A stretch of DNA of 64,000 nucleotides from positions 2,104,481-2,168,480 of the forward strand of contig CM119264.1 in NCBI GenBank assembly GCA_051294375.1. The letters run 5' to 3'. This document shows positions 103-57,399 of the stretch, one piece after another. The translations under genes were made by a program, and so were the position numbers. The first letter of the stretch is position 1. Each line of letters begins with the position of its first letter. This stretch comes from Paraspadella gotoi. Lineage: Eukaryota; Animalia; Chaetognatha. The notes under the pieces are model-generated. The model did no database searches. It saw nothing but the letters and a program-made list of their open reading frames with translations, and was not told the origin of the DNA.

Positions 103-187
<85 letters not shown>

Positions 188-322: not shown

Positions 323-542
323 TTTTCCCCTTTCCTTTCCTTTCCTTTCCTTCTTCCTTTCCTTTCCTCCTTCCTTCTTTCCTTCCTTTCCTTTCCTTTC
401 CTTTCCTTTCTTTCACTTTCCTTTCCTCCCTTCTTCATTATTTAACTCTTTCCTTCCCTTTCCTTCGTTCCTCCCTTATCCTTTCCTCCCTTTCTTCATT
501 ATTTTAACTCTTTCCTCTCTTTTCTTCCTCCCTCCTTTCCAG

Positions 543-11346: not shown

Positions 11347-11632
11347 CCTCGTTTTTTCCCCCTTTTTCTCTCTTTCAATTTCTCGGTGTCGATGAAAACA
11401 CAAAACAAAAAAATACGTCTTAATTTTTGCGTTAGAAAAAAAGAAGAAAATTCCATTGTTTGACATCAGAAAAAAATGAAATATCTTTGTCGCGTTTACT
11501 CGTTCGCCCGGGCGACTTAACTCCACGTCGCATGCGAGCAATGAGAAAAAAAACGCCCAAACACTTTGAGGCCAAAAAGAACCTTTTTCGAATTGCAAAC
11601 AAAAATGGCTTTTCTCTCTCTCTCACTTCCTC

Positions 11633-11707
<75 letters not shown>

Positions 11708-11847
11708 AAGTCAAGAAACGAAAGAATAAATTCGAAATTTCAAAAATAATTTACGCTTTTAAAATAAAAGAAAACAATTTCACGCCTAAACATTCCATTG
11801 CCACCGTCGTTCGTAATTTTTTTTTAACCGTAACTCATTCGCCATTG

Positions 11848-11888
<41 letters not shown>

Positions 11889-11913
11889 NNNNNNNNNNNN
11901 NNNNNNNNNNNNN

Positions 11914-33600: not shown

Positions 33601-34228
33601 TTTCGTTTTTTTTCTCATAACAAAGCATCAGTACAAAAAAGTGAAATATTTGATAAAAAGTAAAAATCTGTTTGTCAGTCCAAATTTCTGATATATTAAT
33701 TGATTATGAACAAGCCCTGATTCAAAATTGTCGCAAAAAATATGTAGAGGTAAGGGCTTGGTCTGCTCTAACAGAATATGTATTAAAAATGCGTTTTTTA
33801 AACCATTTTGTGACAGTACCATAATTTCGAAAACATATAGTAAAAAAATTTGTCACACTTTTTTTCATATTTTTTTCTACTTTGTTAACGATTGGACCTT
33901 GTTAATCTTCTCACAGGGAAATGACGGTCCTTCACATTGTAACTGAACCTTCTGAGTACCAAATGGCTGCATAATTGATAATATTGGGTAAAGGAGTTGT
34001 CTCTGAGATCAATAAATTGGTGCAAAAGTAGGCTGAAACTCCCTTTTAGCTTTTATCTTGCATTGCGACATAAGTATTCAAACAAAAAATACTTGAATCG
34101 ATATGAAACATGTGATTTTAATTGAAGATGAGAAGCTGTATCTAAATTTTCAGCTTCCTAAAAATATACATTTACAATTTATAATTGTAAAAAAAGCGTG
34201 ACAACGACGACGTTGTTACAAAGAAGCA

Positions 34229-34261
<33 letters not shown>

Positions 34262-37200
34262 TTAAAAACAAAGTAAAAACAGGTACTTCATAAAAAATAA
34301 GAATATATTTCTCCCTCTCTAAAATATGGAATCTTGGTGAATGGTGATGCAAATTAAGGACGCATACAAAATATCAAAATTAACACCTTAGTAAATAATA
34401 TAAAAATGAACAAAGATATTAAGGCACTAGATCCCCTTCTCAACAATGAACAAAAAAGATCACTGCGTTCGGCACTGAGCGTTTCCATCCCCATCTTCGC
34501 CATTGCGTACATCAAGATCGTCACTGCCGACGTCACGATCGTCATTGCCAACGTCAAGATCGTCATTGCCGACATCTGGACCCGAAACGACGTTTTGTTT
34601 ACGATAGTCTTCGAGCTTCTCGTACTGGACGGACTTGTCGTGCCTCTCGATGATTGGTCGAATTTCGAAATCTCCTCTTCCTCCTTCCTCCTTCACCTTC
34701 CCCAACAAATACTCTATCTTCTCCTTATCCTTCCTCGCTCTCTCCTCTTGCCTCCTCTTTTGCGCCTTGTACTCCAGCACGGCCGCCTTCAACTCCTTAT
34801 CGTAGTTCTGCTGCTCAACCAGATTTTGTTTCAAATCCTGCGCCTCCTTCTTCGCTTGCTCCAATTCGTACTCCGCTCTGTCTCGCGCCATCGACGCCAT
34901 GTTGAAGGTGATGCGGTTAACGACGCCGGATCCGCGAGAGGCCGAGTAGAGAGCCTCCATGGATATGCAGCCGCCCTTGCAGCAAGTCTTGTAGCCGGCT
35001 TTGAGCGGCTCCGGGAGTTCCGGCGGCGGCGATGGCGGCGGCGGAGCGGTTGCGGTCGGAGCTTGGGACGATTGCATCGAACCCACGAAGGTTCCGTCCA
35101 GCGCTACTTGTGACTGCAATGCTCGGTGCTGCTCCTTGACCCGTTTGATCTCTTGATTTTTAATCTCTATCTGAGTGTTCATGTGGCTGACGGCGTCGGA
35201 TGTATCCTTTTGAGCCGATTTCAATTCCTTCTCCATCTTTTGAACGGCGTGATCTTTAGCCAAATTTTCTCGTTTCGCGTCTTCCAAAGATTGAAGGCAA
35301 ATCTCCAGTCGTTTTCCTTTCTCCATCATTTCTTGTTTGAGTTTCTCCACTGATTCTCCGCCCCCTTGTTCTTTCTCACGCTCCCGTTTCTTTACTAGAA
35401 CGGCCACGAGCTTCTCGTGCTTGGCCTGTAGCTCTTGATAAACGGAGGTCAACCTGATGCCCTTTTGGAAATACTGATCCGCGGTCTCTTTGGACTTTTT
35501 CAATTCTTCCTCCAATCCCTCGATTCTTTTCTTAGATTCTACCAGTTGGATGCCCAACTCTCCGGTCTCGATTTCTCCATCCCACCATTTGTTCTCCATC
35601 TCCCTGTAATCTTTGCATAGCATATTGTAATTTTCACTGGATCTCTCGACTTCAGCGCGCAAGGATTCCAGCTCCGTTTTCTCTTTTGTCAAAGTGGATA
35701 CCTTGCACTCGAGGATTTTCTTCTCTTGTGCGACATTATCGAACTCTTTTTCCAACTCGGACGCTTTTTGAGAATAAAAGTCTTTTTCTTTTTCAATCTC
35801 TTGCTTAGTTGCCAATTGAGAGAGATAGTTTTCGATCTGTTCTTCCTGATCCGCTTTTTGTTGTTTAACGAAATCAAGTTCTTCCTTAACTTTGTTCAAT
35901 TCAACTTGTAAGCAAGAAATCTTGACTTCCATTTCTTTAACCAATTCGCTCGAGCGTTCGTTCATTATTAGTTCTAGTTGATCTTTCTCTTGTTTCAAAA
36001 TATCAAACTCATCATTCAATTTATTTAACTCGGAATTATACGATGATGCTCTCATGTCAGACTCTTGAACTAAATTGTCATAATCACGTTTAATCTCTTG
36101 ATATTTATTACTAAATTCAATTTGAAGATTAGCTTGCACTGACAATTGCGACTGATATTCCTTTATTTGTGCATCTTGTTCAACATTTTGCCGTTTCACA
36201 AAATCAAGTTCAGTGTTAGCATTACTTAATTCCAATCCTAAACATGCAATGTTTTGACTCATTTCTTCGATACAATTATCGGAAACTTGCTTTTGATTTT
36301 CAGTGTCTTTTAATACAACACACTGCGCAGTTAACTGAGAAGAATAATCTTTTAATTGTTCATCAAGAATAATCTTTTTTTGCTTCATATAATTTATTTC
36401 TTCATTTACCTCGTTTAACCTTTTTTTCAAATCAATTATTTGTTGTTTCGCATCTTCAGCATCATTCCTAAGTTTATATTCAACCTGCTCAAAATCTCTA
36501 TCTTTATCTCTCAACAGATTTGTCTGAGCTGTTAATTTAGCAGCATATTCCTTTATTTTCTCCTCTTTCAGGGCCTCTTGTTCTTTTAGATTATTGAATT
36601 CATCATTTACTTTTTTCAATTCAACTTCTAATGTTGATAACTTTTTACTCATTTCTACAGGTTTCCCCAGAGCATTAAGACTTTTTATTTCCTCATCCTT
36701 ATTTTTTAACTGAACTGTTAAATAAAGACTTTCTTCTTTTAAACGAGTTTGTTCCATGTTTAATATATTTATTTTATTGTGAGCTTCATTTAAGTCTTTT
36801 TCATATGACATAATATTTATCTCAGACTCACGGGCTAACTTATCAAATTCTTCTCTAAGATGATTTAAATTTTCATCTTTATCTTTTTTCAACTCTGACA
36901 ATTCTACATAATATACGTTCATTTGTCTTTCTTGATCGCTTTTTTGTTGTCTTTCTAAAACAAGCTCGTTGTTAACATGGCTCAATTCACCTTCTAACAA
37001 TACAATCTTTTCTTCCATTTCTTTTGGTATTTTACTTAAATGTTCATTAGCGTGTTGCTCCTGTATGTCCTTTTCTTGTTTTAAAACATCAAATTCAGCG
37101 TTTAGCTTAATTAATTCCCCTTGATAAACCAATGCTTTTTCATCATTTTCCTTTGACATAAGTAAGACATTCTTTAATTCTTGATCTCTATCTTTCAATT

Positions 37201-40200
37201 GATTTGTCTGCGCATCTAATTTAGCTGAATAATCATTTATCTGCTCTTCTTGAACAGATTGCTGTTGTTTTAAATTATTGAATTCGACATTCACTTTGCT
37301 TAATTCTTCTTCTAATTTTGATAATTCTTTTTCATAAGTTAATATTTTTATCTCAGACTCACAAGCTAAAGTGTCATAGTCGAGCTTCAGACTGGCAAAA
37401 TTATCATCCTTCTCTTTATTAATCTCACATTGATCTGACAATTTTTCCTGATATTCCTTGATTTGTTTTTCTTGATTAGCTTTTTGCTGATTTACCAAAT
37501 TAAGTTCATTGTTAACTTTGCTTAATTCCATTTCTAGCAATGTAGCTTTGTCTTCCATTTCTTTTGACAAGTTACTAGAATGTTCAAGATCATGAGTCTC
37601 CTTATGGGCCTTCTCTCGGGCTAAAATTTCAAGTTCAGCTTTAACTTTATTCAATTCAGCTTGTTGCAATAAAGCCTTTTCATTTGAATCATCGGCCAGT
37701 TTTTTCGTATCTACAAACTTATGTCTAATATCTTCCAATTCTCCATCTTTAACTTTTAACAATTTGTTTTTAGTTACTAACTGAGCGGAATAATCGTTTA
37801 TTTGTTCTTCCTTAGCGGCATCTTGTTGTCTCAGGTCATTAAATTGATCGTTCATTTGATTTCGTTCTATTTCCAACGTTGATACTTTTTTATTCATCTC
37901 TTCAGATGATTTATGAAATGCCATCCTAAGATTTTCTATTTCATTATCCTTATCTTTTAACAAGTTAGACTGAACAGTCAATCTGGAAGAAAATTTTTGT
38001 CTTTCTTCTTCTAGAAAAGCTTGTTCAGAGTTTAATCTTTGAATTTGATCTTTTGCTTCATTCAAGTCTTTCTCAAAAGACGAAATCTTAATCTCTGATT
38101 CACGGGCCAAAATTTCGCGTTCTATTTTTAGATTTTCTAGACGACAATCTTTCTCTCTTTCAATCTCAGACTGATCGGACAATTTAGATTGATATTCCTT
38201 CACACGTTTTTCCATATCATCTTTTTCTTCTTTCATAACTTTAAGTTCCCGGTTAACTTTGTCCAATTCCGTTTCTAACAGAGAAACTTTGTCTTCCATA
38301 TCTTTAGATTGTTTACACGAATTTTCATACATAAATTCGTCTTTTTCTCGCTTTAAAGTTTCGAGTTCCACCTCGACTTTTTTAAATTCAATTCCACGAG
38401 ACGCTTGTTTTTCAATCGCTTCCTTGTACATCAATGCAAGATTTTCTAATTCAATATCTTTATCCTTCAAAACCTTCGATCGATCTGTCAGCCTCGCATT
38501 CATTTCGTCCTCTTGAAGAGAATTTTCTCTTTTAACAGAGTGTAGTTCACGCTCCATCTCTTCCAGTTTCAATTCAAGCGAACAAACCTTTTCATTCACA
38601 TCTTCGTTGAGCTGACGATCAGCATTCTCATGGTCACGCCGATCGGACGACTTGGCCGCGTATTCCTCTATTGTTTTCTCCATTTTGGATTTTTCTCGTT
38701 TGGAGATTTCCAATTTAGCCATCACGCTGCTTAACTCCTCCTTCAAGGAAGACGCCTCATCCACCAATCGCGCAACGAGACTCTCCGACTGGCGAAGTCG
38801 ATCGTCGACGTGCTCCTTAGTGGTCTTAGCTTCTTCCACGAACAATCCTTCCCACGCCGACTTTTCGTGCAAACAAAAACTCTTCTCCGCCCACTTGCTC
38901 GTCAACTCCCGATTCTCTTCCCTCACTCGCTCCAACTCTTCCTTCACTCGCTCCATATCAAAATCCTCTCGATCGGCTAGCATCTCGTGTAGCTCGTCGT
39001 TCTCTCTCTCCAACGCCGTCGCCCGCTCGACGAGCTCTCGCTTCTCCGCCTCGACGCGATCGTTATCGCCTTGGAGAGTCTCGCAAAGATCCGCGTACTC
39101 GGCGCACTTGACCTTCATTTCCGAGAAATCGGCCGAAGGCGGTCGAGGCGGCGGCTTGAGCGCCAGGTTGTCCTCGCTGACGGTCTTGCGCAGCATCGTC
39201 TCCCGCGACATCCGCTCCTTGATGGTGCAGAGCTCGCGCTCCAGCGTCGCGATGGCCAGATCCTTATCCAACAGCTCGTCCTCCAATTGACGAAGACGGG
39301 ATCGATTGTCTTCGTCATCGACGGACGGAGGATCGGGCAGCGGCGAATAACGAGACGTGACGATTTCGTCGCCGAAATTGACGCGTTTCGCCCGCTTCGC
39401 CGAAGACGACGGCGCCGCCGCGGTCTCCTGCGGCTGCTGCGGAAGAGTGTTCTTCCCACTCAGCTGCAGACTCGATTTGATGGCGCTGGACGAGAGGTTG
39501 CTGCGTCGCGCGGGTGGACGGAGTCTCGTCGTAACGAAAGCGGATTGAGGACCGGAACGAACGAAGGCCGTCGACGGAGTCGCGCAGGGTGTGTCCGAAG
39601 GCGCCGGCGCAGAAATTTGAGAATCCTCGAGAAGAGTCGGCGCCGCAGCGGGATCGGCGCCGCAGCGAGTAAGAGTGAAGGACGGATAAAAGGAGGAGCG
39701 GCGCCGGAGATTTTTGCCGCCTTGACCCGGCGCCCAAGTCTCTCGTCGACGAGCGCGGGTCTTGAATGCGCTGGGTTTGGGGGCGGCGTTGGAGGCCGAG
39801 TCGAGAGAGTGGATGAAGAGCTTCTGGAGTTTCTCGAGGGCACGTCGTTGTTCCTCGAGGCGTTCGTCCTTTTCCGTCATTTTGCGTTCGTGTTCTTCTC
39901 GACGTTCGGAGTCGGGCTGCACGGGTAAGGGAAGGGATGAACTTGTTAACAGGGGGAAAATAAAGAAAAAACAGAATAGCGAATTTTTATATTTGTTTTA
40001 AGGTCCGGGATCACTCAATTCAAATTATAATTAGCCTAAAACCGAGCTCGGATTTCGAAAGGAGAGCTCCTGACGATTCCGAAAATGTATTCACTTTACT
40101 ATTTTTTCAAAGGCGTCATCGTTTTTTGATTTTTTTTGTACTATATAAAATAAAAGAAACCTATTTGAAGAGTTGCAGCCCAAACGGTAAGGCGGTTTCT

Positions 40201-43200
40201 CATAAAATTTGGCATGAATTACTTTTAGGTCACTAACTCAATTCTATGAAAAGATATTTTCAAAATTTGCCTTCCTTCATATAAAATTTGATTATTTTAA
40301 TCAATTTTTGGGATTAATTCCTTGATATCTTTGAAACGAAAAACATTTTTTCAAAAACGCGCTCATAGAATCTCCCCCACCTTTCCTTTCTTGCCCAAGA
40401 TATTTTTTTTCTTCAAGAAGAGTCCAATGGTTTGAGCTGCAACTCTTCGTTTTTAACTTCACTTCGTCAAGAAAGTTAAATTCTGTACTCATTAAACTCA
40501 TTAAACATTTACATAAAGTAAAAAGTCAAATTGAAATAAATTCGATAAGTTTTTTAACTCATAAAACTCATGAAAGTATAAAAAACCGTCTGGAAAATGT
40601 GAAGAGTAGTTTGTTTTAGACTTATTAGTTATACAACCCCATGTATGTACTTGTACCAAAGGAAGAATTAAATATAAGAAGTAGAAATTGAGCTTACTGT
40701 AAAGAATCAGTTTTAAGTTAAAAATTTAGTTGTAGAAATTTAGCTTACATATAAAAAAATAATTTTCTCTTGAAAATCTAGTTTTACCGAAGAAAAAAAT
40801 TTTGTTTAAATTTTATGAACATTTTAGGTAGATTTTTAAAAGTTTTCGAATAATTTTTAATAGAAAACCTCTTACAGGATATGAGAAAATGATTAAGATA
40901 CAGTAAATTAAATTTCTACAATTTTAGGTTGAGTGATCCCTGGCCTTAACAATTTCAAAGGGGAGAAAAAGAGAAAACTGCGGAGGAATCAAAAAGGATT
41001 GATAAAAAATAGAGGATGAGATGGGTTCAAAGAGAAAGCGTGAGAAAGAAATAGTGAGAGAAAAGAAAAGTGTGAAAGTAAAGATAGTGAATACTACTAC
41101 TAAATAGTGGTAAATATTTCACATGGGTAGAGAGACACACGCTCAGAAAACCATTAAAATAAATTTGAAGGAACAACTACCGTCCTACATCGACAAAGAA
41201 ACTCAACACGAAACCATCCCCCACTAACCCTCTACTGACACGTGACTCAAACAACTAATCCAAAAAGGACAATTTATGGTTCCTAGTGGAACCGGGATTC
41301 TTTATGGTTCTTCCCCACCAACAAGTGAGCATCTGCTCTGCAAAAGAGAGATCAGTGGTCTTTTAATACAACACACTGCGCAGTTAACTGAGAAGAATAA
41401 TCTTTTAATTTTTCATCAAGAATAATCTTTTTTTGCTTCATATAATTTATTTCTTCATTTACCTCGTTTAACCTTTTTTTCAAATCAATTATTTGTTGTT
41501 TCGCATCTTCAGCATCATTCCTAAGTTTATATTCAACCTGCTCAAAATCTCTATCTTTATCTCTCAACAGATTTGTCTGAGCTGTTAATTTAGCAGCATA
41601 TTCCTTTATTTTCTCCTCTTTCAGGGCCTCTTGTTCTTTTAGATTATTGAATTCATCATTTACTTTTTTCAATTCAACTTCTAATGTTGATAACTTTTTA
41701 CTCATTTCTACAGGTTTCCCCAGAGCATTAAGACTTTTTTATTCCTCATCCTTATTTTTTAACTGAACTGTTAAATAAAGACTTTCTTCTTTTAAACGAG
41801 TTTGTTCCATGTTTTATATATTTATTTTATTGTGAGCTTCATTTAAGTCTTTTTTCATATGACATAATATTTATCTCAGACTCACGGGCTAACTTATCAA
41901 ATTCTTCTCTAAGATGATTTAAATTTTCATCTTTATCTTTTTTCAACTCTGACAATTCTACATAATATACGTTCATTTGTCTTTCTTGATCGCTTTTTTG
42001 TTGTCTTTCTAAAACAAGCTCGTTGTTAACATGGCTCAATTCACCTTCTAACAATACAATCTTTTCTTCCATTTCTTTTGGTATTTTACTTAAATGTTCA
42101 TTAGCGTGTTGCTCCTGTATGTCCTTTTCTTGTTTTAAAAATCAAATTCAGCGTTTAGCTTAATTAATTCCCCTTGATAAACCAATGCTTTTTCATCATT
42201 TTCCTTTGACATAAGTAAGACATTCTTTAATTCTTGATCTCTATCTTTCAATTGATTTGTCTGCGCATCTAATTTAGCTGAATAATCATTTATCTGCTCT
42301 TCTTGAACAGATTGCTGTTGTTTTAAATTATTGAATTCGACATTCACTTTGCTTAATTCTTCTTCTAATTTTGATAATTCTTTTTCATAAGTTAATATTT
42401 TTATCTCAGACTCACAAGCTAAAGTGTCATAGTCGAGCTTCAGACTGGCAATTATCATCCTTCTCTTTATTATCTCACATTGATCTGACAATTTTTTCCT
42501 GATATTCCTTGATTTGTTTTTCTTGATTAGCTTTTTGCTGATTTACCAAATTAAGTTCATTGTTAACTTTGCTTAATTCCATTTCTAGCAATGTAGCTTT
42601 GTCTTCCATTTCTTTTTGACAAGTTACTAGAATGTTCAAGATCATGAGTCTCCTTATGGGCCTTCTCTCGGGCTAAAATTTCAAGTTCAGCTTTAACTTT
42701 ATTCAATTCAGCTTGTTGCAATAAAGCCTTTTCATTTGAATCATCGGCCAGTTTTTTTCGTATCTACAAACTTATGTCTAATATCTTCCAATTCTCCATC
42801 TTTAACTTTTAACAATTTGTTTTTTAGTTACTAACTGAGCGGAATAATCGTTTATTTGTTCTTCCTTAGCGGCATCTTGTTGTCTCAGGTCATTAAATTG
42901 ATCGTTCATTTGATTTCGTTCTATTTCCAACGTTGATACTTTTTTATTCATCTCTTCAGATGATTTATGAAATGCCATCCTAAGATTTTCTATTTCATTA
43001 TCCTTATCTTTTAACAAGTTAGACTGAACAGTCAATCTGGAAGAAAATTTTTGTCTTCTTCTTCTAGAAAAGCTTGTTCAGAGTTTAATCTTTGAATTTG
43101 ATCTTTTGCTTCATTCAAGTCTTTCTCAAAAGACGAAATCTTAATCTCTGATTCACGGGCCAAAATTTCGCGTTCTATTTTTAGATTTTCTAGACGACAA

Positions 43201-46200
43201 TCTTTCTCTTTTTCAATCTCAGACTGATCGGACAATTTAGATTGATATTCCTTCACACGTTTTTCATATCATCTTTTTCTCTTTCATAACTTTAAGTTCC
43301 CGGTTAACTTTGTCCAATTCCGTTTCTAACAGAGAAACTTTGTCTTCCATATCTTTAGATTGTTTACACGAATTTTCATACATAAATTCGTCTTTTTTCT
43401 CGCTTTAAAGTTTCGAGTTCCACCTCGACTTTTTTAAATTCAATTCCACGAGACGCTTGTTTTTCAATCGCTTCCTTGTACATCAATGCAAGATTTTCTA
43501 ATTCAATATCTTTATCCTTCAAAACCTTCGATCGATCTGTCAGCCTCGCATTCATTTCGTCCTCTTGAAGAGAATTTTCTCTTTTAACAGAGTGTAGTTC
43601 ACGCTCCATCTCTTCCAGTTTCAATTCAAGCGAACAAACCTTTTCATTCACATCTTCGTTGAGCTGACGATCAGCATTCTCATGGTCACGCCGATCGGAC
43701 GACTTGGCCGCGTATTCCTCTATTGTTTTCTCCATTTTGGATTTTTCTCGTTTGAGATTTCCAATTTAGCCATCACGCTGCTTAACTCCTCCTTCAAGGA
43801 AGACGCCTCATCCACCAATCGCGCAACGAGACTCTCCGACTGGCGAAGTCGATCGTCGACGTGCTCCTTAGTGGTCTTAGCTTCTTCCACGAACAATCCT
43901 TCCCACGCCGACTTTTCGTGCAAACAAAAACTCTTCTCCGCCCACTTGCTCGTCAACTCCCGATTCTCTTCCCTCACTCGCTCCAACTCTTCCTTCACTC
44001 GCTCCATATCAAAATCCTCTCGATCGGCTAGCATCTCGTGTAGCTCGTCGTTCTCTCTCTCCAACGCCGTCGCCCGCTCGACGAGCTCTCGCTTCTCCGC
44101 CTCGACGCGATCGTTATCGCCTTGGAGAGTCTCGCAAAGATCCGCGTACTCGGCGCACTTGACCTTCATTTCCGAGAAATCGGCCGAAGGCGGTCGAGGC
44201 GGGCGGCTTGAGCGCCAGGTTGTCCTCGCTGACGGTCTTGCGCAGCATCGTCTCCCGCGACATCCGCTCCTTGATGGTGCAGAGCTCGCGCTCCAGCGTC
44301 GCGATGGCCAGATCCTTATCCAACAGCTCGTCCTCCAATTGACGAAGACGGGATCGATTGTCTTCGTCATCGACGGAGGAGGATCGGGCAGCGGGGAATA
44401 ACGAGACGTGACGATTTCGTCGCCGAAATTGACGCGTTTCGCCCGCTTCGCCGAAGACGACGGCGCCGCCGCGGTCTCCTGCGGCTGCTGCGGAAGAGTG
44501 TTTCTTCCCACTCAGCTGCAGACTCGATTTGATGGCGCTGGACGAGAGGTTGCTGCGTCGCGCGGGTGGACAGTCTCGTCGTAACGAAAGCGGATTGAGG
44601 ACCGGAACGAACGAAGGCCGTCGACGGAGTCGCGCAGGGTGTGTCCGAAGGCGCCGGCGCAGAAAATTTGAGAATCCTCGAGAAGAGTCGGCGCCGCAGC
44701 GGGATGGCGCGCAGCGAGTAAGAGTGAAGGACGGTTAAAAGGAGGAGCGGCGCCGGAGATTTTTGCCGCCTTGACCCGGCGCCCAAGTCTCTCGTCGACG
44801 AGCGCGGGTCTTGAATGCGCTGGGTTTGGGGGCGGCGTTGGAGGCCGAGTCGAGAGAGTGGATGAAGAGCTTCTGGAGTTTCTCGAGGGCACGTCGTTGT
44901 TCCTCGAGGCGTTCGTCCTTTTCCGTCATTTTGCGTTCGTGTTCTTCTCGACGTTCGGAGTCGGGCTGCACGGGTAAGGGAAGGGATGAACTTGTTAACA
45001 GGGGAAAAATAAAGAAAAAACAGAATAGCGAATTTTTATATTTGTTTTAAGGTCCGGGATCACTCAATTCAAATTATATTAGCCTAAAACCGAGCTCGGA
45101 TTTCGAAAGGAGAGCTCCTGACGATTCCGAAAATGTATTCACTTTACTATTTTTTCAAAGGCGTCATCGTTTTTTTGATTTTTTTTGTACTATATAAAAT
45201 AAAAGAAACTATTTGAAGAGTTGCAGCCCAAACGGTAAGCGGTTTCTCATAAAATTTGGCATGAATTACTTTTAGGTCACTAACTCCAATTTATGAAAAG
45301 ATATTTTCAAAATTTGCCTTCCTTCATATAAAATTTGATTATTTTAATCAATTTTTGGGATTAATTCCTTGATATCTTTGAAACGAAAAACATTTTTTCA
45401 AAAACGCGCTCATAGAATCTCCCCCACCTTTCCTTTCTTGCCAAGATATTTTTTTCTTCAAGAAGAGTCCAATGGTTTGAGCTGCAACTCTTCGTTTTTA
45501 ACTTCACTTCGTCAAGAAAGTTAAATTCTGTACTCATTAAACTCATTAAACATTTACATAAAGTAAAAAGTCAAATTGAAATAAATTCGATAAGTTTTTT
45601 AACTCATAAAACTCATGAAAGTATAAAAAACCGTCTGGAAAATGTGAAGAGTAGTTTGTTTTAGATTATTAGTGATACAACCCCATGTATGTACTTGTAC
45701 CAAAGGAAGAATTAAATATAAGAAGTAGAAATTGAGCTTACTGTAAAGAATCAGTTTTAAGTTAAAAATTTAGTTGTAGAAATTTAGCTTACATATAAAA
45801 AATAATTTTCTCTTGAAAATCTAGTTTTACCGAAGAAAATTTTGTTTAAATTTTTATGAACATTTTAGGTAGATTTTTAAAAGTTTTCGAATAATTTTTA
45901 ATAGAAAACCTCTTACAGGATATGAGAAAATGATTAAGATACAGTAAATTAAGATTTCTACAATTTTAGGTTGAGTGATCCCTGGCTTAACAATTTCAAA
46001 GGGGAGAAAAAAGAGAAAACTGCGGAGGAATCAAAAAGGATTGATAAAAAATAGAGGATGAGATGGGTTCAAAGAGAAAGCGTGAGAAAGAAATAGTGAG
46101 AGAAAAGAAAAGTGTGAAAGTAAAGATAGTGATACTACTACTAAATAGTGGTAAATATTTCACATGGGTAGAGAGACACACGCTCAGAAAACCATTAAAA

Positions 46201-48874
46201 TAAATTTGAAGGAACAACTACCGTCCTACATCGACAAAGAAACTCAACACGAAACCATCCCCACTAACCCTCTACTGACACGTGACTCAAACAACTAATC
46301 CAAAAAGGACAATTTATGGTTCCTAGTGGAACCGGGATTCTTTATGGTTTCTTCCCACCAACAAGTGAGCATCTGCTCTGCAAACGCGACATCTCCCAGA
46401 GAGAAAACGAAAGAGGAAACCTCCTCTTCCCGCCTTCTTTCCCCCTCCCGTACGCTACCTCAGTACGCCGACACGAGACAGAATCACTCGTAACCAAGCA
46501 AACCAAGAGGGGGGAATCCCGCGGACTTCCGGTGACGTGCCACGCCCACTTGACCGGACGTCGTAGAAGGGGGGGATGAGAAGCCCGAAAAAGAACCAGT
46601 CCATGGACGAAAACCGGGTCTGGAGAAACTGACGGCCGGACGAAGCAACGGCCGAAAGAGCTGTCGGGCGATCAGTTGGCGTCCTTGACGTCCCTGGAGT
46701 CCCGCCCCTACGCTTGGGAGGCGGCGAAAACTTGCGAGGCCAGTAGGGACGGCGAGGCGAGAAGCGTCAGCGACAGAAAGGACAGTATGAGCGGAACGCT
46801 CCGGCGTCCCTCATGATGCTTCAAAAAGCCTTGAAAGCGCGCGTCGTCTTGGAGTCCTTCCGAACGGCGTCGAACTGAGCGGCAAGGCAACTCTGAGCAG
46901 GAGGACAAAATCCGCCGGCGAAGAGACATCCGACCAGCGCCGGAAACGCGTATAGGCGGAAAGAACGTCCCACGACGGTAAAGAACGTCGTCCTGGCCAA
47001 CTCTGCGCAAAACCCTCCACTGCTGTAGGACCCACTCCGAAGGCTGTACAGAAGCACGACGAGACAAGAAGTTGTCCAACCCCGCAGCAGAAACGGAGGC
47101 GTCGTCGTCGACTTGCGCAGATGGGGCTCGACGAGGAAGGCGTGACGCAGTCACCCGCTCGGAGCGTGAAGGCCGATCCGCCGCCGAAGAGGCCGCCAAG
47201 AACGCGAAGACTCCAAGTCGCTGGCGTACAAAAGACGACGAAGAACGGCGAAATGGCGAACAGAGGCGTCCAAGAACCATGAAGAAAACGTACATGGAAA
47301 AAAAGAGAATCATTGAAAAATGACAGTCTCAAAAAAAGAACCCAAAAAAACACCCCACACAAACAAGACAAGCGAGCCTGAGCCGCCCTCCACCACCGGT
47401 GGTGCCAGGGGTGGACGGTGGTGGTTGTTGGTGGGGAAGAACCATGAGAAATCCCGGTTCCACTAGGAACCATAAATTCTATCATGTAGTTCTTCCCCAC
47501 CAACAAGTGGCCTGTAACAAGACCAGGCAAAGGCCCGACAAAAAACAAACAAACAAAGTCGAGTTAGGTGGGGCAAGGAGGAAAACCCCTCTGTACGCCG
47601 AAATGTACGCCAAAAAAAGGCGAAAAACAAAAACGAAAAGAAAGAAGAACTCACCGCCGAAGACTCTCCAATTCGGAACGAGACGAGCGGCGAAACCTCC
47701 CTAAATTCGCGACGAACGCTAGAAAGAGCGTTGCTATTTGAGAACTGCCTCCATCTGAAGGGGCATGACTTCGGCCTGACCAAGAAAAGCCCGGAATGGC
47801 TGATGGTGGAGGCGGTGGAGGCGGCGGCGAAGGCGGCGGCGGAAGAGACATGAGGGTAGTCGAGTTGAAAACACGCGCCTCAGTCCAAAAAACGGAGAGC
47901 ACTGGACAAACAAGGGGGCGAAACAAGGTTCTTCCCCCCAGCAGCCGTACTAAGCGCCGTGGGCAAACGAGAGAGGCCGAGTCGCGGCTCTTCCCTCCGC
48001 ACCGCGCAGGGTGCGTCGAGGGCAAGCGAAAGGGCCGAGTCAAGGCTCTTCCCCCGAAGCCACGCACAACGAAGACGAAAAAAGATGGCGGCCGTGAAGA
48101 GAAACTTCAAAGCCACGTGTCGAAGAATATCTGTATTCTGAACTCCAAAAAAAAGGAACGAAAAATATGCAAAATTATTCAAAAAATAATCAAAAAATAT
48201 TTTCGTAAAAAGCCGGGAGACTGTGAGCGCAAAAGCGCGAACAGAAGAAGTGATTCTGTCTCGTGTCGGCGTACTGAGGTAGCGTACGGGAGGGGGAAGA
48301 GAAGGCGGGGAAGAGGAGGTTTCCTCTTTCTTTTTCTCTCGGGAGATGTCGCGTTTGCAGAGCAGATTNNNNNNNNNNNNNNNNNNNNNNNNNGCTCACT
48401 TGTTGGTGGGGAAGAACTACATGATAGAATTTCCACCACCCCCCTCCTCGCCGATAAAAACCAACCCCTTCCCTCCACTTCGCCCAAACAAAAAAAAAAA
48501 AACAGACCGTTTGCGCTTCGGCGTTTCTCTCCTTCTCCATTTCCGCTAATCTTTCTTTCAGCTTTAAAATCTCCTTCGTTTTCCGTTTGAGCAAAACTTC
48601 GTCCGAAACGAATTCGTTGACGTGGGCGCTGTTCTTGATTTTCTTGCAGTTTAGTCCGAACCTAGTTTAGGGGGAAGGGTGGGCGTCTCTAGATAAAAAA
48701 CCGAAGAAAAATAACACGAATCGCTCCCCCGAATTTTCTTTCTTCTCACCCTTTTTCCCCATGAAAGACAATCAAGACAAGCGAGACAATCATATCCATT
48801 TCCTTTAATTGATTGATTAATTCATTCATTCTTTCAACTTCCTCGCACCGTCTCTCCCATTAATCGCGTGATCG

Positions 48875-48924
<50 letters not shown>

Positions 48925-51900
48925 ATTCCACCTCAACGTATTCTTTGTCTCCTCGACGGAGGCGGGCGTGACGGCGCAAATCACGGCCGTCCTCGAATTC
49001 CCGCCCAACGAGTCTTTCAAAATTCGGGTGAGTTTCGAGTTTCGGTAAGGAACGTGCTGCTGCTTTCGCGGATTGGCCGCGTTCTCCGAGAGAATCTCGA
49101 TCACGCGGGTCAAGTCAGTTAATGATTGGTTGATGTTGACGCCCTCGCGAAACGTCTCCCCCTTGGATCCTGTCTTTCCTAGGGATGATAAATAATAATA
49201 GTGATAAATAATAATAGAGATAATTAAATAATAGTAAAAACGATGACAAACCACAAACCCGTTCCTTTTTGCGCTTTCCTAAATCCCTTTCCCACTCACC
49301 CGGCTTCTCCGATCCGGCCAAATCGACGAGGTTCATGATCGACCTCCTCACGGCGCCCGACTCTTCGCTCCCGCGGTCTTGACTCTCCAGCGTGAGAGTG
49401 AATATGGTGTGAGACCTCGAGCTCCGGTTGTTCATCACGGTCTCGGCGAAATGGCGACGTCGCTCGCCCTCCTGATCGAAGAGAGTGAGGAAGAGTGAGG
49501 AAAGTTGTGAAAAAGTGAAGATGAAGAAAGGAGAGGAAAGAAAGAAAAATAAAGAAAGGTTATAAAAAAGAAGGAAAGCAGTGGTGAAGTAAGGAGGTTG
49601 CGATAAAGGTGATACGGGAGTGGGTACGGAGAGAAAGTGAAATTGGATAAAATATGAAGAGGAGGTGATTAAGATTAAAAAGTGTGAGGAAGAGAAGAGA
49701 GAAAAGAAGAGAAGAGAAGAGAAGAGAAGAGAAGAGAAGAGAAGAGAAGCGGAAAGTTGACATGGGAGGACGAAGACGAGTCACTCGGTCACACTCACAC
49801 TCACAGGGAGTAAAATTTGAAAAAGATGAGTCCCCTTCCTTCACTCCCCAACTCCTCTAAACAAATGCTTCCACAAACCTGTTTCTTAGCATAGATCTCC
49901 TCCTCGGACGTGACAAAGGCCGACTCGACGCCTTCGATGAAGGTCCGCCCTTCTTCGTCCTCCCTCACGGCGAGATCGTCGACGCGATTGGACGCGATGT
50001 TGTTGGAGGAGGAGGAGGAGGAGGAGGAGGGGTCGACGAGGAGATCGCGAACTCGATCCTCGTAAATCTCGACGTAGGTGACGCTGAAGATGAAATGTCT
50101 GTCGATGGGGAAAAAAAAAGGGGGGGGGAAAGAGGACTTTGATTATATCTTGACGATTGAGCGAGGATGGGTTATGATGGGTTAAGACAGTTTAAGGTTT
50201 TTATCCAAAAAATCAATCTATTTGATAACATTTTAAAAGATTTATTCAAATAATTTCTATAATAATAATAATCAGTGAAAACAATTTTAAAATCTACTTC
50301 GCGCATGCACAAAAACAGACTCGCTCTCTTTATCTCTCTGTCGAGCAAAGCACCTTCTAACTAGTAGAATCTTCGTAGAATTTCAAAACCACAATAAACA
50401 CCACAACCACAAGACCGCAAGACAACCTGTTGACGGATTCGTCGATCCGCTGGAAGACCCGATGAACGATGAGAGGAATGACTCCCGGTTCGTTGGCGTC
50501 GCCGCTCATCGTGTGCGTCTTGCCCGACGAGGTCTGCCCGTAGGCGAAGACCGTGCAGTTGAATCCCTCGAAGAAATCGTCGACCATCGGGCGGACGACG
50601 TCGTCGAACACGTCCTGGGTCGAGCTCGTCATGCCGAAGACTCTGCGATGATAAGGCGATAAGTAATGATGAAAATAAAGTAAAAAAGAAAAAGGAATTC
50701 GTAGGTGAAATTCGGCAAATAAAACTAATAGGAAACAGTGAAATAAAAATGAAACGTAATCATTACATTACTACAATATGCAAATGAGATAGAGAAACTA
50801 GATCTAATTAATAAGGCTTAATTTCTTTACCTCCTTTCCTTGGCATGGTAAAATCCCTTAACCATTCCCTCTCTTCTCCACATCCCTACCGATCGTAGCA
50901 ATATTCCTGCGCTGCCGGATTCGTAGGAATAATCTTCTTCGTCGTGGGATCGATTTGCTTGATGAACCAAGATTCGCTTCCTTCCTTTTCTTTCCAATGA
51001 AGTTGCGCGTTCGTCTTTTTCTCGCGAGGAATGAGGGGACGGATTCTGGGGGGGGAGGGGAATGAGTGAAAAGAAGGGGTTGAAAAGGGTTGAGAGAATG
51101 GAATAAGGGGAAGGGAGGAAAGTGAGGGAAGGGGCAAAAAGAAGGAGAGAGACGGGTGGCGATAGGGGAAAGGATGGAGAGAGAGAGAGAGAGGGGGAGG
51201 AAGAAAAATAGAGAGGGGGAAAATAGGAATGAAAGAAGGAAAATATAACGATAATTTTAATCAGAGCGAAATTAAGTAGAGGTCAAAAGAATTAATCCTC
51301 ACTTCCTTCATAGCGATTTTCACAATATCAATTTTCTCACACCTGACCGCCGTGATGATGGTGTGAGCCTTCTCGTTGTTGACCGCCATCGTCTCGATCG
51401 TCGTCGAGGAGTCATCCAACTTTGTTTTCTTTCTGTTCTGATGTTTTTTTGTTTTTTTCTAAGGGAGGTTTTGTTGTTTTTGTTGTTTTTTTAATTTTTT
51501 TTTAAATTTTATTTGAGGCCGGCAAAAGTTTTTATGGCAGTTTCATCGCAGTTTTATAAGTTTGTTCTTTCATTCGAGGATTCTGTAAACTATAATTGTA
51601 TAATATATTACATATGTATATGAAAAAAAGACCGGGGTTTCTTTCCACTCATGAAAATTGTATAATTCGGCTCATTTTCAATTTGGTATAATTTGGTATA
51701 AGCGAAAATAAAATTTAGCCGCTAATGAAATATAAAGAATTGAGAAGTTATCACAGATCTTAAAGTCCGCCTATCACGACGACCATATCAAAATCTCGCG
51801 CGGGGAGCCTCAGTCGAGAAACATGAACCTGACGGTGCTGATCCTGGCGCCGCACAAGTGGCAAAGGGTCAGCTTGGCGGCGCAGCGGCGGCAGGCGACG

Positions 51901-54900
51901 TGGCCGCAGTCGAGAACGGCATCCTTCTTCTCGTCCATGCAGATGGAGCAGCGGAGTCGATCCTCCAGATTCTCTTTTTCCCGGAGAAGATCGTCGACGA
52001 TCTCCTTTTTCTCCTCTCGCTTCTTCAACGAATCCGCAAGGCGGTTGTTGTCCTGCTTCAGGCGGTCGTTGTCCTTCGTCAGTCGATTCTTTTCTTTTCC
52101 CAGGCGATTCTTATCCTCCACAAGACGATCTCGGTGTTTTAGCAGGTATTTCTTGTCCTCCACCAGTCGATCTTGGTCTTTTGACAGGCGATTCTTGTCC
52201 TCCGAGAGGCGATCGTTGTCCCTCATCAAACTTTTCTTTTCCTCCAACAACTTTCGACACTTTTCCCTCAATGTCTGATTTTCCTCCTCGACCAGATGGC
52301 CGTTATCTTTCGACAGATTGTCGTTGTCCTTTGACAGGCGGTCGTTGTCCTTTGTCAGACGATGATTGTCGTCTCTCAAACCTCTTTTCTCCGCCGTCAA
52401 CTTTCGACACTTTTCTCTCAGCATCTCCATATCCTCCTCCGTCTGGAAATCTCGTTCGCGTTTGCGTCTCTCGATGTTTGCGTCTTTTTCGTCCACGAGA
52501 TGGACGGTGCGCCGATGCGACTCAGGAGGCGTCAGTGGCACCACGACACGGACCGTTCTTTGATATCGAGAAGGATCTTTGGTCTGCGGCACCGGCTCAG
52601 GAGGAGGTTTCACCCGCGTCTGTTTCGCCAGTAGCGGCGTCGTTGATCTTTCTTCTTTTCCCGCCGTAGCGCCCGTCGCCACGTGGAACAGGGGTTTGGC
52701 CGGAAGACGGGTGAAACGATTTCCCAAAACGAGGCTCCGATTCTTGGGATAATCCGCCATCCTTAGCTCTTCTAGGGATTTGTTCTCGTACTTTTTCATG
52801 ACGGAGATGCACTGGAATTTGACGAGCCCGCTTTGCACTTGGTCACCGATCATTGACACGTCGGACCCAGACACTGGTTCGAATTTGGTCGGCGTTCCGA
52901 GCGGATAACAAAATAGGAGGCCGCCCGGGCGGGGGTCGCCGTTGGAGGCGGGATAGTTCATTAATCGTTTGACGGTAAAAGGAGAGAAAAGATGAACTAA
53001 TGAAAAAAATATAGATTTAGGTAAAAAATAGTTTTAATCGACTAGAAATAGTTTAAATTTTAAAATAGGGGGGGGAAATCTGAGCAAGGCAAGGGGAAAG
53101 ATAAAAAAAAGTGGTGGTCAATAATAATTGTCTTTTCATAGGGTAAAGGAAAATGATGGGGGCTAATAATGGCAAAAACGACCAGAGGAGAAAAATAATC
53201 TTAAAAGTATAGTGATATCGTTTATCGCCAGACGTTACTATCAAAGAAAATTAACGAAAAAATCTTAAAATCACAATGATCCATCGCTCCATCTCGAACA
53301 AAACCTCGTACTTTATAAAACCGGCTAATAAACAAATGATTTTTCCCTTACAAAGTTTTTATTCGTTACCGAATTCCGATCGAATAAAAAAGTTAAGAAT
53401 ATTTTTTCAACGGAGACTTTCTTTCGAATCTGACTACCAAACTTATGATGCGATGATAACAAATTAGTAATGTGTTGATAACAAATTATTGATGCGATGA
53501 CAAATTATTGATGGGAAAATGTTCAAAAAATGCAATGAAATGAATTGAATGAATGAAATGAATGAATTGAATGAAATGAATAAATGAGTGAAATACATTT
53601 AAATTTATTTAATTAAAATAAATGAAAGAATTGAGATAATTTTAAATTTATTTACTCAATATAATTTACTTATCAACTAAATTAATTAAATTCAACGAAT
53701 TTAATTAATTAAATTTAATTAAAGAAATTGAATGAATAAATATATATATATATATATATATAAATATAATGGATATTTTTATATTGGTTGTACCAATTTC
53801 ATAAAATTCATCTCCTTGTATTTTGATGCTAGTGCGGAGTACAATATAGTATTCCCCGATCTAATACTTAAGGGAGTGGTCTTTTCATACAATTGAAACA
53901 TTCTTTGAAATATTATACCACTTCATTGATAGGAAAGCCAGGTTCACTGGGAGTGAATAAATAAGACTGTGAGATAGTCTTGATTGAAAGCTTGCAGAAA
54001 CCTGCTATGTTATTATCTTGTAAGTGTGATGGAGGCCTTAAACCACCAAAGCCTGTCCAAAGTCAGGGACAAGATAGCTTATTTATTAAATGAATGGATA
54101 ATTTTTATATTGGTTGTACCAATTTCATAAGAAAGAAGGAGATATAAAAAACAAGAGAAACGATGGAAAGAGAAAGCGGTTTTAAAATTATAACATGCGC
54201 GACTGCGACAATTAACATCATGAGTTCGAACCTCATAACTTTTTTGGATAAAAAACAAAGAAAAAGAGAGAGAAATCCAGCCGCTGCAGAGCTGAACTCG
54301 TTTTTAGACGAATCAGAAAAAGAAAAAAAGAGAGAGAGAAAGAACGACATATATTTAAAATGTAATTCATAATTTGTAGTAGTTTTTATATAATAATTAT
54401 TTTGTAAATAAAACAAACAAATCCGAGTATTGATATGAAACATGATAATTTCAAAACTATATCTAAATTTTAGCTTCCTAATTGTAATTCGTAGTAGTAG
54501 TGACGACGACGACAGTAAACGATTATCTTCGCCCAAGAGATAAAAAAAATGATTAATTACAGGATAAGTAAAGAGCCTTATAAAAATAATAATTGCTTAA
54601 ATTTTATTAAGTTAAAGAAAAGAAAAAAATTCTATGTTGTAGTTAACGTAAACTTCCGGTCATTTGTGCTTGGATCAAACGAAAAATCTGATTGTCGACA
54701 CCTTGTTAATCGTTTTATATGAGAAACTGAACAGGATTGTGAAAATTTTCGATTGCATGGTTAAAAAAAAACAGTATAGCAACGAGTAATGGTTAAAGGA
54801 GCTATGGGTACGTGCCCAGAAGGATGGGGCAGCCTAGGGACGAGGGGTGAAGAGCAAATTGTCGGAGTTTTCATGATTTCCTTTTAAGATCACGTGACGG

Positions 54901-55824: not shown

Positions 55825-57399
55825 AAAGGGAAACTATAAGTAAATCCGAAAATGGTTTTCCTTTATTGTCAACGTCCTGAAAATGTCAATGTCAATGTCC
55901 TAGATCAAACTCAATTTGCTGGAACATGAAAAAAAACTGGAAAAATAAATAAACGGGAATTTTATTTTGGGAATTTTTTTCACGAGAAAAATTCATTCAT
56001 TTATTTTTAAGCACGGAGTGTAAGCGTTTCAATCTGAAATAAATGCTTCAACCGGAAAAAAAAAATAGCTAAAAGAAATGTAGATAGATGTTCAACATTA
56101 CGTGCTGATTTGTCTTGTATTTTTAAGGCATTTCTGGTGGTAAATTTCAAAGAGTCTTTGATAAGTAATGGTATAAATTATAACTTTAACCTTCGATTGA
56201 GTAAGGTTCGAAAAGGAACGTCCGAGCCGATGGTCAAGATTCAATGAAATCAACAACTAAGGCACTATAATCCAATTGGCTCGGCGCGTCCCAGTTTTAT
56301 TTTTTGTTTCCCACAACCTTGATGTTAAGAATTCAAAAGAGATTTGTTACAGAAACACAGCGTGGGGGGACACCATGAACTTTTGATATTTCACGACTCG
56401 ATTGGTAGGTTCGTTACGTTATATAACTGTTTAAAAAGATGTTCACTAGTTCACTGGCGGGAAGACCTCTATAACATTTTCAATCTCGCGAAACTACCAA
56501 ATGCAGATGTTCTTATCAAAAGCAGGTGTTCTCTTTGGAAGGCATGTTAGGTTAGGTGTTGAAGAGAATAACGTTAAATATATACGTTTAATGAAAGGAT
56601 AATCTGAAAGGAACGGCTGGACAATTCGCTGAGATGTTTTCAATCTCCTTTCATTGGCCGGCGTTTAAAAAATGGTTGAATCGAGTTGGTAAAAATATAG
56701 CAAGTTTCTTTTTTTTTTCCCCACTGGAATCAAATTTACGTTATTCTCCGGAGCCCAAAAACGAAAAGGAGAAAAAAAAGGTTCAAACCCAACTTTCCAC
56801 GCATCCTGAGTTTTATGATGACGATCAAACCAAGCGTCTTTTCACACACTAGATCCGAGTCGTGGGATTCGAAGAGCGGACGCCGCCCTCGATCGATCCG
56901 CGCGATGGAGCGAGGAATCCAAATCCCTTATAACAATAAATTACTTCTAAGACGAATGACGCCGTCGTCGTGGTCGACGTCCCAACTCAAAACCCACGAC
57001 TCGGGGGATCAACTCGATAAACAAAACTGGGGGGAGGGAAACGGCAACAGTTGATCGGATTTATTTACTTGTTTTTGTTTTGTTTTTTTTTTGCACACGG
57101 AATTTACGGTTCGCGAAAAGTTGATTGAGTATATAAAACAGGCCGTGTAAATACCGCTGACCAAATAATAGTGTGCTAATTATCAATTAAACCTTTTTTT
57201 TTGATGTAATCGAAAAAATCGGAAGAGGAAAAAATTAACTGAAAAAAGTAAGTTTGTTGGAAGACGGTTTAGGAAAAAAAAATGCTAAAGCTGAACATAC
57301 TACGTTGGAACTAACGCCTTCCCGATATCGACTAAGCTTAATGGATGACTTAGATTCTTAGGTAGAGGGAGACGCGAACGGGACGCGATATCTCTCGCT

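What the first reader, a model, noticed from the sequence alone, without database searches (positions are those of the whole stretch)
34460..52961. Both cargo genes point to kinetochore/spindle-checkpoint control: possible selfish segregation module
Seen in the sequence: the element's only two intact genes are co-oriented and only ~420 bp apart (RING gene stop at 51810, kinesin ATG at 51389), and a satellite array lies in the same element. Established knowledge: CENP-E moves chromosomes and interacts with BubR1; GLEBS motifs engage Rae1/Bub3; maize Ab10 meiotic drive uses duplicated, diverged kinesins acting on tandem repeats. Speculative inference: a mobile two-gene cassette combining a chromosome motor with a checkpoint- or export-modulating ligase, possibly biasing segregation or germline division. 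The alternative is passive relocation of the sole, essential CENP-E.
Basis: inference. Interest (0 to 1): 0.7.

Follow-up and report, generated by a model that had tools for sequence, protein, structure and literature searches.

The report
CENP-E gene pair inside dead transposon
An intact, spliced gene for the chromosome-moving motor CENP-E and a neighbouring gene for a predicted Rae1-docking ubiquitin ligase lie together between decayed inverted repeats, likely inside an intron of a cilia gene and likely carried there by a now-dead DNA transposon, with no sign found that they cheat inheritance.

Summary
The layout is real; the selfish reading is not supported. The animal window holds an eight-exon, 2222-aa kinesin-7 (CENP-E) and, 420 bp upstream on the same strand, an intronless gene for a Nup98-type GLEBS + coiled-coil + RING protein. 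Both lie between decayed inverted arms (66% alike) flanked by a perfect 10-bp direct repeat, likely inside intron 2 of Flattop; removing the block leaves a 200-bp intron. So an insertion of about 18.5 kb is likely. It encodes no transposase. Public contigs show the kinesin spliced, both genes near-invariant and at flank-like depth in the other samples laid, and the 5-kb duplicate in the window as a likely assembly artefact. The 740-bp satellite belongs to a separate nested repeat. The GLEBS is the Rae1 type, not the Bub1/BubR1 type. Best reading: passive relocation of an ordinary CENP-E and its neighbour in a giant Pack-TIR-like block. Two leads remain: one RNA contig runs through both genes, and GLEBS+RING proteins with different RING types occur in a mite, a tunicate and unnamed assemblies. 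The scan earlier noted a GLEBS in a TRIM ligase on other DNA.

The parts
30667..30922 (+). Flattop/CFAP126 exon 1 (host gene)
   Evidence: PF22611 E 8e-27, profile positions 1-78 of 184
30995..31135 (+). Flattop exon 2 (predicted), donor G|GTAAG
   Evidence: model; no Pfam hit on its own
31226..31235 (.). left copy of the 10-bp direct repeat (likely target-site duplication)
   Evidence: the word occurs twice in the window, only here and at 54779
31236..31432 (+). left inverted arm, decayed
   Evidence: 153 of 231 columns alike to the right arm (153 of 181 without gaps)
31449..34067 (.). nested non-coding element with its own 34-bp inverted ends; multi-copy
   Evidence: 88% over 34 nt; contig depth at 33800-34056 far above the exon (X1 2181 vs 37)
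32145..32885 (.). 18-bp minisatellite, about 41 copies, inside the nested element
34081..34459 (-). kinesin 3' UTR as far as RNA contigs reach
   Evidence: X9 contig 34081-34804
34460..39916 (-). CENP-E exon 8: RRETW motif, long coiled coil, C-terminal CAAX-type end CRTQ
   Evidence: covered by DNA and RNA contigs with 0-2 differences
41353..46393 (.). second, frameshifted copy of 36300-41352; likely assembly artefact
   Evidence: 42 indels and 12 substitutions in a global alignment; no joint, flat depth, RNA skips it
46311..48432 (-). non-coding DIRS1-like retroelement in intron 7 (inverted ends plus internal complementary region at about 47425-47509); holds the 25-N gap
   Evidence: family label from recalled DIRS anatomy
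48508..51389 (-). CENP-E exons 1-7 (51389-51343, 51045-50890, 50642-50427, 50098-49879, 49471-49300, 49178-48932, 48661-48508): motor and neck
   Evidence: introns 1-5 seen as RNA joints
51390..51809 (-). 420-nt spacer with AATAAA at 51513, an unpaired acceptor-like site at 51459 and 7 short upstream ATG frames
   Evidence: crossed by one RNA contig
51810..52961 (-). intronless GLEBS-coiled-coil-RING gene, 383 aa
   Evidence: RNA contig 53254-51343
52737..52904 (-). Nup98-type GLEBS (residues 20-75), without FG repeats
52023..52395 (-). 21-bp repeats encoding a 7-residue (heptad) coiled coil
   Evidence: (D17)
51852..51950 (-). C3HC4 RING (residues 338-370), 13-residue tail, Gly after the last Cys
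54554..54778 (-). right inverted arm; member of a multi-copy family
   Evidence: other family contigs at depth 83-130; fold-back joint 54553/54616 in X5
54779..54788 (.). right copy of the 10-bp direct repeat
   Evidence: bridged by X5 contig 54746-55144 and X9 contig 54393-54917
54889..55034 (+). Flattop exon 3 (predicted); gives a 180-aa protein
   Evidence: X9 contigs branch exactly at 54888; no Pfam hit on its own

Best explanation
An intact, spliced CENP-E gene and an intronless GLEBS-RING gene lie between two decayed inverted arms and a perfect 10-bp direct repeat, likely as an 18.5-kb block inserted into intron 2 of Flattop by a now-dead cut-and-paste DNA transposon family and likely fixed and inherited normally. 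Steps: (1) inferred: a short non-autonomous element with arms of about 200 bp entered the 200-bp Flattop intron and duplicated 8-10 bp of target; (2) inferred: the two-gene unit entered between the arms as DNA (introns kept), more likely by gap-filling repair of a break inside the element, otherwise by two family members moving the segment as a composite; (3) inferred: the parent locus was lost, leaving this as the working CENP-E; (4) shown: other repeats (nested element with the satellite, DIRS-like element) sit inside the block; (5) predicted from family knowledge: the kinesin aligns chromosomes as a plus-end kinetochore motor; the RING protein binds Rae1 through its GLEBS, dimerises through coil and RING tail, and tags Rae1 or its partners with ubiquitin, perhaps weakly, or acts as a Rae1 decoy. 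The two genes may share a transcript, but nothing shows that they act together.
For: Direct repeat: 36 of 60000 random pairs. Removing the block leaves a 200-nt intron, like the 121-407 nt introns 1-6 of the kinesin, and a 180-aa Flattop against a 184-position profile. RNA contigs branch at 54888, the base predicted if a donor ending in GG is joined to 54889. No transposase: 0 of 43 stretches. Kinesin-7: clade support 99 with spider CENP-E, best BLAST hit of 120, best PDB hit for exons 3 and 7, catalytic motifs intact. Spliced RNA: 5 introns as joints, exon 7 joined to exon 8. Contig depth over both genes like the flank (X5 14-25 vs 11-14; X8 9-25 vs 16-32). Right junction bridged in 2 non-source samples. 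Single-copy animal Pack-TIRs arise mostly by gap filling (PMC8277862 sections 7, 8).
Against: The Flattop exon 2-3 join was not seen directly and exons 2 and 3 have no Pfam hit. The arm ends are not flush with the repeat (2 extra bases left, 7 right). Published animal Pack-TIR cargo has a median of 224 bp, some 80 times smaller. No genome is held, so a diverged second kinesin-7 cannot be excluded; contigs drop rare variants and their depth is no copy number. Exon 6 alone scores best with KIF18A. The tree is the quick one, with kinesin-4 and -8 as the only labelled outgroups and 6 rows left out.
Confidence: 0.68

Rival explanations
1. The two genes are a real functional unit: an operon-like transcript (RING gene first, CENP-E second) co-expressed in dividing cells, the RING protein tuning Rae1-dependent mitotic control. 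This can hold together with the insertion.
For: One X9 contig (2378 nt) runs unbroken from 53254 through the RING frame, the spacer and spliced kinesin exons, while intron contigs have depth 2-4. AATAAA at 51513 and an unpaired acceptor-like site at 51459 leave little room for a promoter. The cargo is little more than this unit plus repeats. Rae1 loss weakens the checkpoint in mouse (PMC11794522 passage).
Against: A contig across two genes shows no single transcript (tool's caveat); one RNA run of one study; contig depths differ (436 vs 240); neighbouring genes are similarly close; 0 of 5 other GLEBS+RING proteins could be checked for a kinesin neighbour; trans-splicing in this lineage is unknown.
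Confidence: 0.14
2. No insertion took place: the genes are old residents (nested or not), the arms are two unrelated copies of a dispersed repeat, and the 10-bp repeat is chance.
For: Arms only 66% alike, ends not flush; the right arm belongs to a multi-copy family; the window holds other inverted pairs of dispersed repeats; the test region was chosen after seeing the arms.
Against: Chance of the direct repeat about 6e-4; the empty site gives an ordinary intron and a full-length Flattop; RNA branch at the predicted acceptor.
Confidence: 0.13
3. A selfish segregation cassette, still mobile or swept to fixation: the motor and the ligase bias chromosome inheritance, using the satellite as target.
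For: Both products touch mitotic or nuclear-transport machinery; the block is bounded like a transposon; a transposon carrying drive genes is known in fungi (PMC8092012 abstract); a fixed driver would show no polymorphism.
Against: No extra or diverged motor; wrong motor class for neocentromere drive; the satellite is 740 bp and belongs to another multi-copy element; GLEBS is Nup98-type; no mobilising gene; present in every sample laid.
Confidence: 0.05

Closest known systems
Pack-TIRs of animals and Pack-MULEs of plants (PMC8277862; abstract and sections 7, 8, 10 read)
   Same: host DNA with introns between the arms of a non-autonomous TIR element, target-site duplication outside, single copy, decayed arms
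   Different: cargo about 18 kb and two whole expressed genes against a median of 224 bp; no parent copy seen; superfamily not assigned
CENP-E / kinesin-7 (PMC7475649, passages read)
   Same: N-terminal motor, long discontinuous coiled coil, C-terminal prenylation-type end, groups with spider CENP-E
   Different: 2222 aa, almost the whole stalk and tail in one 5.5-kb exon, gene nested antisense in a likely inserted block; kinetochore-binding region not tested
Nup98 GLEBS-Rae1 complex (PDB 3mmy, 4owr hits; PMC3779320 passage)
   Same: whole 56-residue GLEBS with the EE pair aligns to Nup98
   Different: no FG repeats; fused to a heptad coil and an IAP/MYLIP/MIB-like C-terminal RING
GLEBS+RING proteins of Dinothrombium (P0155, P0277), Styela (P0261) and unnamed assemblies (P0141, P0158, P0227)
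   Same: Nup98-type GLEBS N-terminal to a C-terminal RING, few or no FG repeats in most
   Different: 1-2 GLEBS copies, different RING spacings and linkers (CAP-Gly in Styela, heptad coil here); no similarity to the query's coil; Arg follows the last Cys in 4 of 5, Gly here
Maize Ab10 Kindr/Trkin drive (PMC7462060, abstract and introduction read)
   Same: a kinesin and a tandem repeat in one region
   Different: extra, diverged minus-end kinesin-14s (nine Kindr genes) acting on polymorphic knobs up to tens of Mb; here one ordinary kinesin-7 and a 740-bp array
Enterprise/Spok block of Podospora (PMC8092012, abstract read)
   Same: large gene-carrying insertion
   Different: 110-247 kb, own tyrosine recombinase, several genomic sites, proven spore killers; none of these here

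Membership tests
CENP-E / kinesin-7 | N-terminal motor with intact P-loop, switch I and switch II | tested here: met
   GQTSSGKT, NNRSSRSH, DLAGSE in the spliced frame; PF00225 on 4 of 4 exons scanned
CENP-E / kinesin-7 | motor groups with kinesin-7 | tested here: met
   7-row clade, SH-aLRT 99, with spider CENP-E; quick tree, limited outgroups; exon 6 alone prefers KIF18A
CENP-E / kinesin-7 | CENP-E-type neck, long coiled coil, C-terminal CAAX | tested here: met
   neck best hit CENP-E chimera E 0.0026; RRETW shared with P0044; ends CRTQ; reading CRTQ as a farnesylation box is from recalled knowledge and PMC7475649
CENP-E / kinesin-7 | kinetochore localisation, BubR1 binding, plus-end motility | not testable with these tools
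   needs cell biology
Pack-TIR | inverted arms of a multi-copy TIR family | tested here: met
   arms decayed, ends not flush
Pack-TIR | target-site duplication | tested here: met
   10-bp direct repeat, 36 of 60000 random pairs; exact length 8-10 bp uncertain
Pack-TIR | internal host DNA, no transposase | tested here: met
   two genes; 0 of 43 other stretches match Pfam
Pack-TIR | parent copy or empty/element-only site elsewhere | tested here: inconclusive
   no second copy 80% or more alike shown; no genome held; tables cut
Nup98-type GLEBS | full motif with the glutamate pair, closer to Nup98 than to Bub1/BubR1 | tested here: met
   PF21240 46.8 bits; 7 Nup98 chains, no Bub1/BubR1/Mad3 chain at E 0.001
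Nup98-type GLEBS | binds Rae1, not Bub3 | not tested
RING E3 ligase (IAP/MYLIP/MIB-like) | C3HC4 zinc ligands and short C-terminal tail | tested here: met
RING E3 ligase (IAP/MYLIP/MIB-like) | cationic linchpin residue | tested here: not met
   Gly follows the last Cys (position recalled). The residue varies among active E3s and its change ranges from minor loss to none left (PMC12326332 abstract), so this lowers expected activity, not family membership
Ab10-type kinesin drive system | extra, diverged minus-end kinesin-14 beside the normal gene | tested here: not met
   N-terminal kinesin-7, branch 0.89, no second copy seen
Ab10-type kinesin drive system | large polymorphic target array | tested here: not met
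   740 bp inside another element; arrays elsewhere in the genome not testable
Ab10-type kinesin drive system | non-Mendelian transmission | not testable with these tools
   needs crosses
Eukaryotic operon | one pre-mRNA resolved by trans-splicing | tested here: inconclusive
   one RNA contig crosses the spacer; acceptor-like site; no leader seen, loose-end table cut

The most novel reading that the evidence does not exclude
The block is a co-transcribed segregation cassette that moved as a unit and swept to fixation: it made the animal's only CENP-E a passenger of a Rae1-directed ligase gene, one of several independent Nup98-GLEBS-RING fusions in animals that arose from conflict over nuclear transport or germline division. 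A milder form (probability about 0.3) is that GLEBS-RING proteins are a real, repeatedly invented class of Rae1-docking ligases, whatever the role of this locus.
Probability: 0.05. Interest if true: 0.85.

Novelty: new variant of a known kind. Interest (0 to 1): 0.4.

Why it matters
If the insertion holds, it shows a non-autonomous DNA transposon family moving two whole, expressed genes, one normally essential for mitosis, into an intron: some 80 times the median cargo of described animal Pack-TIRs. Moving an essential gene with loss of its old site can make hybrids lack it altogether (recalled precedent: JYAlpha in Drosophila), so the locus is a testable case of incompatibility by gene relocation. 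Separately, the recurring Nup98-GLEBS + RING architecture points to cellular ligases or decoys aimed at Rae1, a hub that viruses also attack; 2 paper searches (listings only) showed no description of it. As a drive system it is not supported.

Tried and rejected
No whole genome is held, so kinesin-7 copies could not be counted and other arm-bounded copies not sought. My first reading, that the arms were mere dispersed repeats (given), was dropped after the direct repeat and the Flattop intron were found. A real tandem duplication of exon 8 was rejected. Word-based homologue search of the RING protein gave 1 hit, to the low-complexity coil only. The Atlas search gave only RING clusters under 0.9, several viral; no conclusion drawn. 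Run X10 (organism B) holds a few identical low-depth pieces, so it is no outgroup. The run search listed no holder on record as RNA; X9 was a guess until its splice joints were seen. Uncovered AT-rich parts of exon 8 in X5 and X6 are not read as absence. Flattop exons 2 and 3 gave no Pfam hit. The careful tree did not finish. A DLEC1 search placed the host only as an animal without close relatives (33-35% over long alignments to amphioxus, hemichordate, molluscs), so whether its lineage trans-splices is open. No structure or complex was predicted: no Rae1 sequence was at hand and nothing suggests that the two products bind. The Nup98-Rae1 structure paper was not held. Look-ups of earlier findings by place, by sequence and for CENP-E as cargo gave nothing. 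No supplements were read; those of PMC8277862 list all Pack-TIR sizes and may hold larger cases.
Full report
Setting. The window is animal DNA: it holds DLEC1-like, Y-box and OATP genes, Src-like and SUMO-like genes and Flattop. DLEC1 has no close relative in the collection (33-35% over long alignments). No whole genome is held, so evidence from outside the window comes from contigs of public runs and protein searches.

The two genes. The upstream gene is one frame, 52961-51810, 383 aa: GLEBS at residues 20-75, a coil built of 21-bp repeats and a C3HC4 RING at 338-370. Of 17 PDB sequences matched, 7 are Nup98 and 10 are IAP, MYLIP, MIB1 or XIAP RINGs; none is Bub1, BubR1 or Mad3. A review passage says that Bub3 lacks affinity for the NUP98 GLEBS (PMC3061984) and another that Rae1 binds it and also affects the checkpoint (PMC11794522). 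So Rae1 is the predicted partner, and a mitotic role is possible only through it. The residue after the last Cys is Gly, where most RINGs have an Arg linchpin (position recalled; PMC12326332 abstract and section 6), so ligase activity may be weak. The kinesin starts 420 nt downstream and has 8 exons and 2222 aa. It is CENP-E by best BLAST hit among 120 kinesins, by PDB hits of exons 3 and 7, by a clade of support 99 (quick tree of 33 rows, 6 further rows left out as too short), and by its RRETW motif and CRTQ end. Exon 6 alone scores best with KIF18A. Its branch is not long for the clade (0.89 against 0.61-1.37).

Expression and copy state. X9 is RNA: its contigs skip introns 1-5 at the predicted GT-AG sites, and a contig of 5871 nt and depth 240 passes from exon 7 straight into exon 8 at 39917 (taken as one record by equal length and depth). 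The kinesin was found in 4 of 4 non-source samples of the organism laid on it (X5, X6, X8, X9) and the RING gene in 3 of 3 (X5, X8, X9). Differences were few: 2 in the RING frame (E225D, one silent) and 2 in exon 8 (R991K, M1692I). Contig depth over the genes resembles the flank, and no other letters were listed in motor exons at 80% likeness. This fits one copy, but depth is no copy number, tables were cut, and a more diverged paralogue would not show.

The 5-kb duplicate. 36300-41352 and 41353-46393 are 98.9% alike with 42 indels and 12 substitutions, mostly single bases in runs. In X1 one contig spans 34775-40025 without a difference or a break at 36300; depth inside the duplicated part (38.2) equals that outside (43.3); no joint is listed at 41352/41353; X5 and X6 contigs run on at 41344 as copy B does; the RNA skips the second copy. 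It is likely a long-read assembly artefact. The 25-N gap hides almost nothing: the other end of the same repeat reads through it. The true block is about 18.5 kb, not 23.5.

The element. The only long inverted pair round the genes is 31238-31432 with 54554-54770, 153 of 231 columns alike. I first took these for dispersed repeats, since the right arm recruits other contigs. But a 10-bp word, found only twice in the window, lies directly outside both arms in direct orientation; 36 of 60000 random pairs of 25-nt windows share such a word. The block interrupts Flattop: exon 1 matches positions 1-78 of the 184-position profile, and joining a canonical donor at 31135 to an acceptor at 54889 gives 180 aa. 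X9 contigs branch exactly at 54888, as that join predicts (the two paths share one G). Without the block the intron would be 200 nt; kinesin introns 1-6 are 121-407 nt. The join itself was not observed and exons 2 and 3 have no Pfam hit. One X5 contig folds back at 54553/54616, a hint of short two-armed family members. None of 43 other stop-free stretches matches Pfam, so the block cannot move itself.

The satellite. It is 740 bp and lies inside a separate 2.6-kb element with its own inverted ends whose right end is multi-copy. Maize knobs can reach tens of megabases and are moved by extra kinesin-14s (PMC7462060). The Ab10 likeness fails on motor class, copy number and target.

Mechanism. Shown: gene structures, splicing, arms, direct repeat, absence of a transposase hit, presence in all samples laid. 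Inferred: insertion of a short TIR element into the Flattop intron, entry of the two-gene unit as DNA, loss of the parent site, fixation. Single-copy animal Pack-TIRs mostly arise by gap filling after the element has inserted (PMC8277862), which suits decayed arms; a composite cut-and-paste move would explain the missing parent more directly. I cannot separate the two. The cargo is about 80 times the published median of 224 bp.

Open leads. First, one RNA contig of 2378 nt covers 53254-51343 unbroken and goes on through spliced exons; the spacer holds AATAAA at 51513, an unpaired acceptor-like site at 51459 and 7 short upstream frames. That suits an operon or read-through, but a contig proves no single transcript, and nearby genes are similarly close. 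Second, 5 of the 150 listed representatives (of 634 at E 0.001) carry both GLEBS and RING: a mite, a tunicate and 3 unnamed records. Their RING spacings and linkers differ and none shares the query's coil, which suggests repeated fusion; no tree was built to test this. Two paper searches (listings seen) showed no such class.

Verdict. Observation confirmed with corrections; the selfish-module reading is unlikely (0.05); passive relocation of an ordinary CENP-E and its neighbour in an unusually large Pack-TIR-like block is the best reading (0.68). New variant of a known kind; interest 0.4.

Noticed in passing
window 46311-48432: Non-coding element of about 2.1 kb with 97% alike inverted ends and an internal region complementary to both ends, the anatomy of DIRS1-like retroelements (label recalled); no coding remnant; multi-copy by contig depth.
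   Followed up: partly
window 1-334 and 11532-11862, gap at 11889-11913: A 92% alike repeat just before the other 25-N gap; may be a second gap-filling artefact of the assembly.
   Followed up: no
window 53781-54135 (parts also at 10621-10702, 19162-19271): Extremely abundant dispersed repeat (summed contig depth 3e5-4e5 in DNA runs against about 15 for genes), also present in the RNA run.
   Followed up: no
window 54888-56677 and beyond: One unspliced RNA contig covers the predicted last Flattop exon and runs on towards the convergent Y-box gene: long overlapping 3' ends are likely.
   Followed up: no
window 31119-31230: The Flattop exon 2 donor lies in a 34-43 bp unit repeated three times just outside the left direct repeat; only the first donor keeps the frame open.
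   Followed up: partly
window 20332-24471: DLEC1-like gene with a single open frame of 1380 codons, 33-35% identical to amphioxus and mollusc proteins over long alignments.
   Followed up: partly
window 34460-39916: CENP-E exon 8 has internal repeats of about 180 and 250 codons at 68-75% identity and a sharp fall of GC3 from 0.69 at its 5' end to 0.32 in the middle.
   Followed up: no
window 7280-7798 and 13572-14229: Two further minisatellites (30-bp unit, 18 copies; 58-bp unit, 11 copies, 94% matches) outside the block: such arrays are common here.
   Followed up: no
proteins P0124, P0125, P0129, P0131, P0142, P0145, P0219, P0230: Many proteins carry 2-8 tandem Nup98-type GLEBS copies, several without FG repeats; P0219 and P0230 end in what looks like the start of a RING.
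   Followed up: partly
run X10: A run labelled as another organism holds identical low-depth pieces of this locus: mixed sample or co-occurrence.
   Followed up: no
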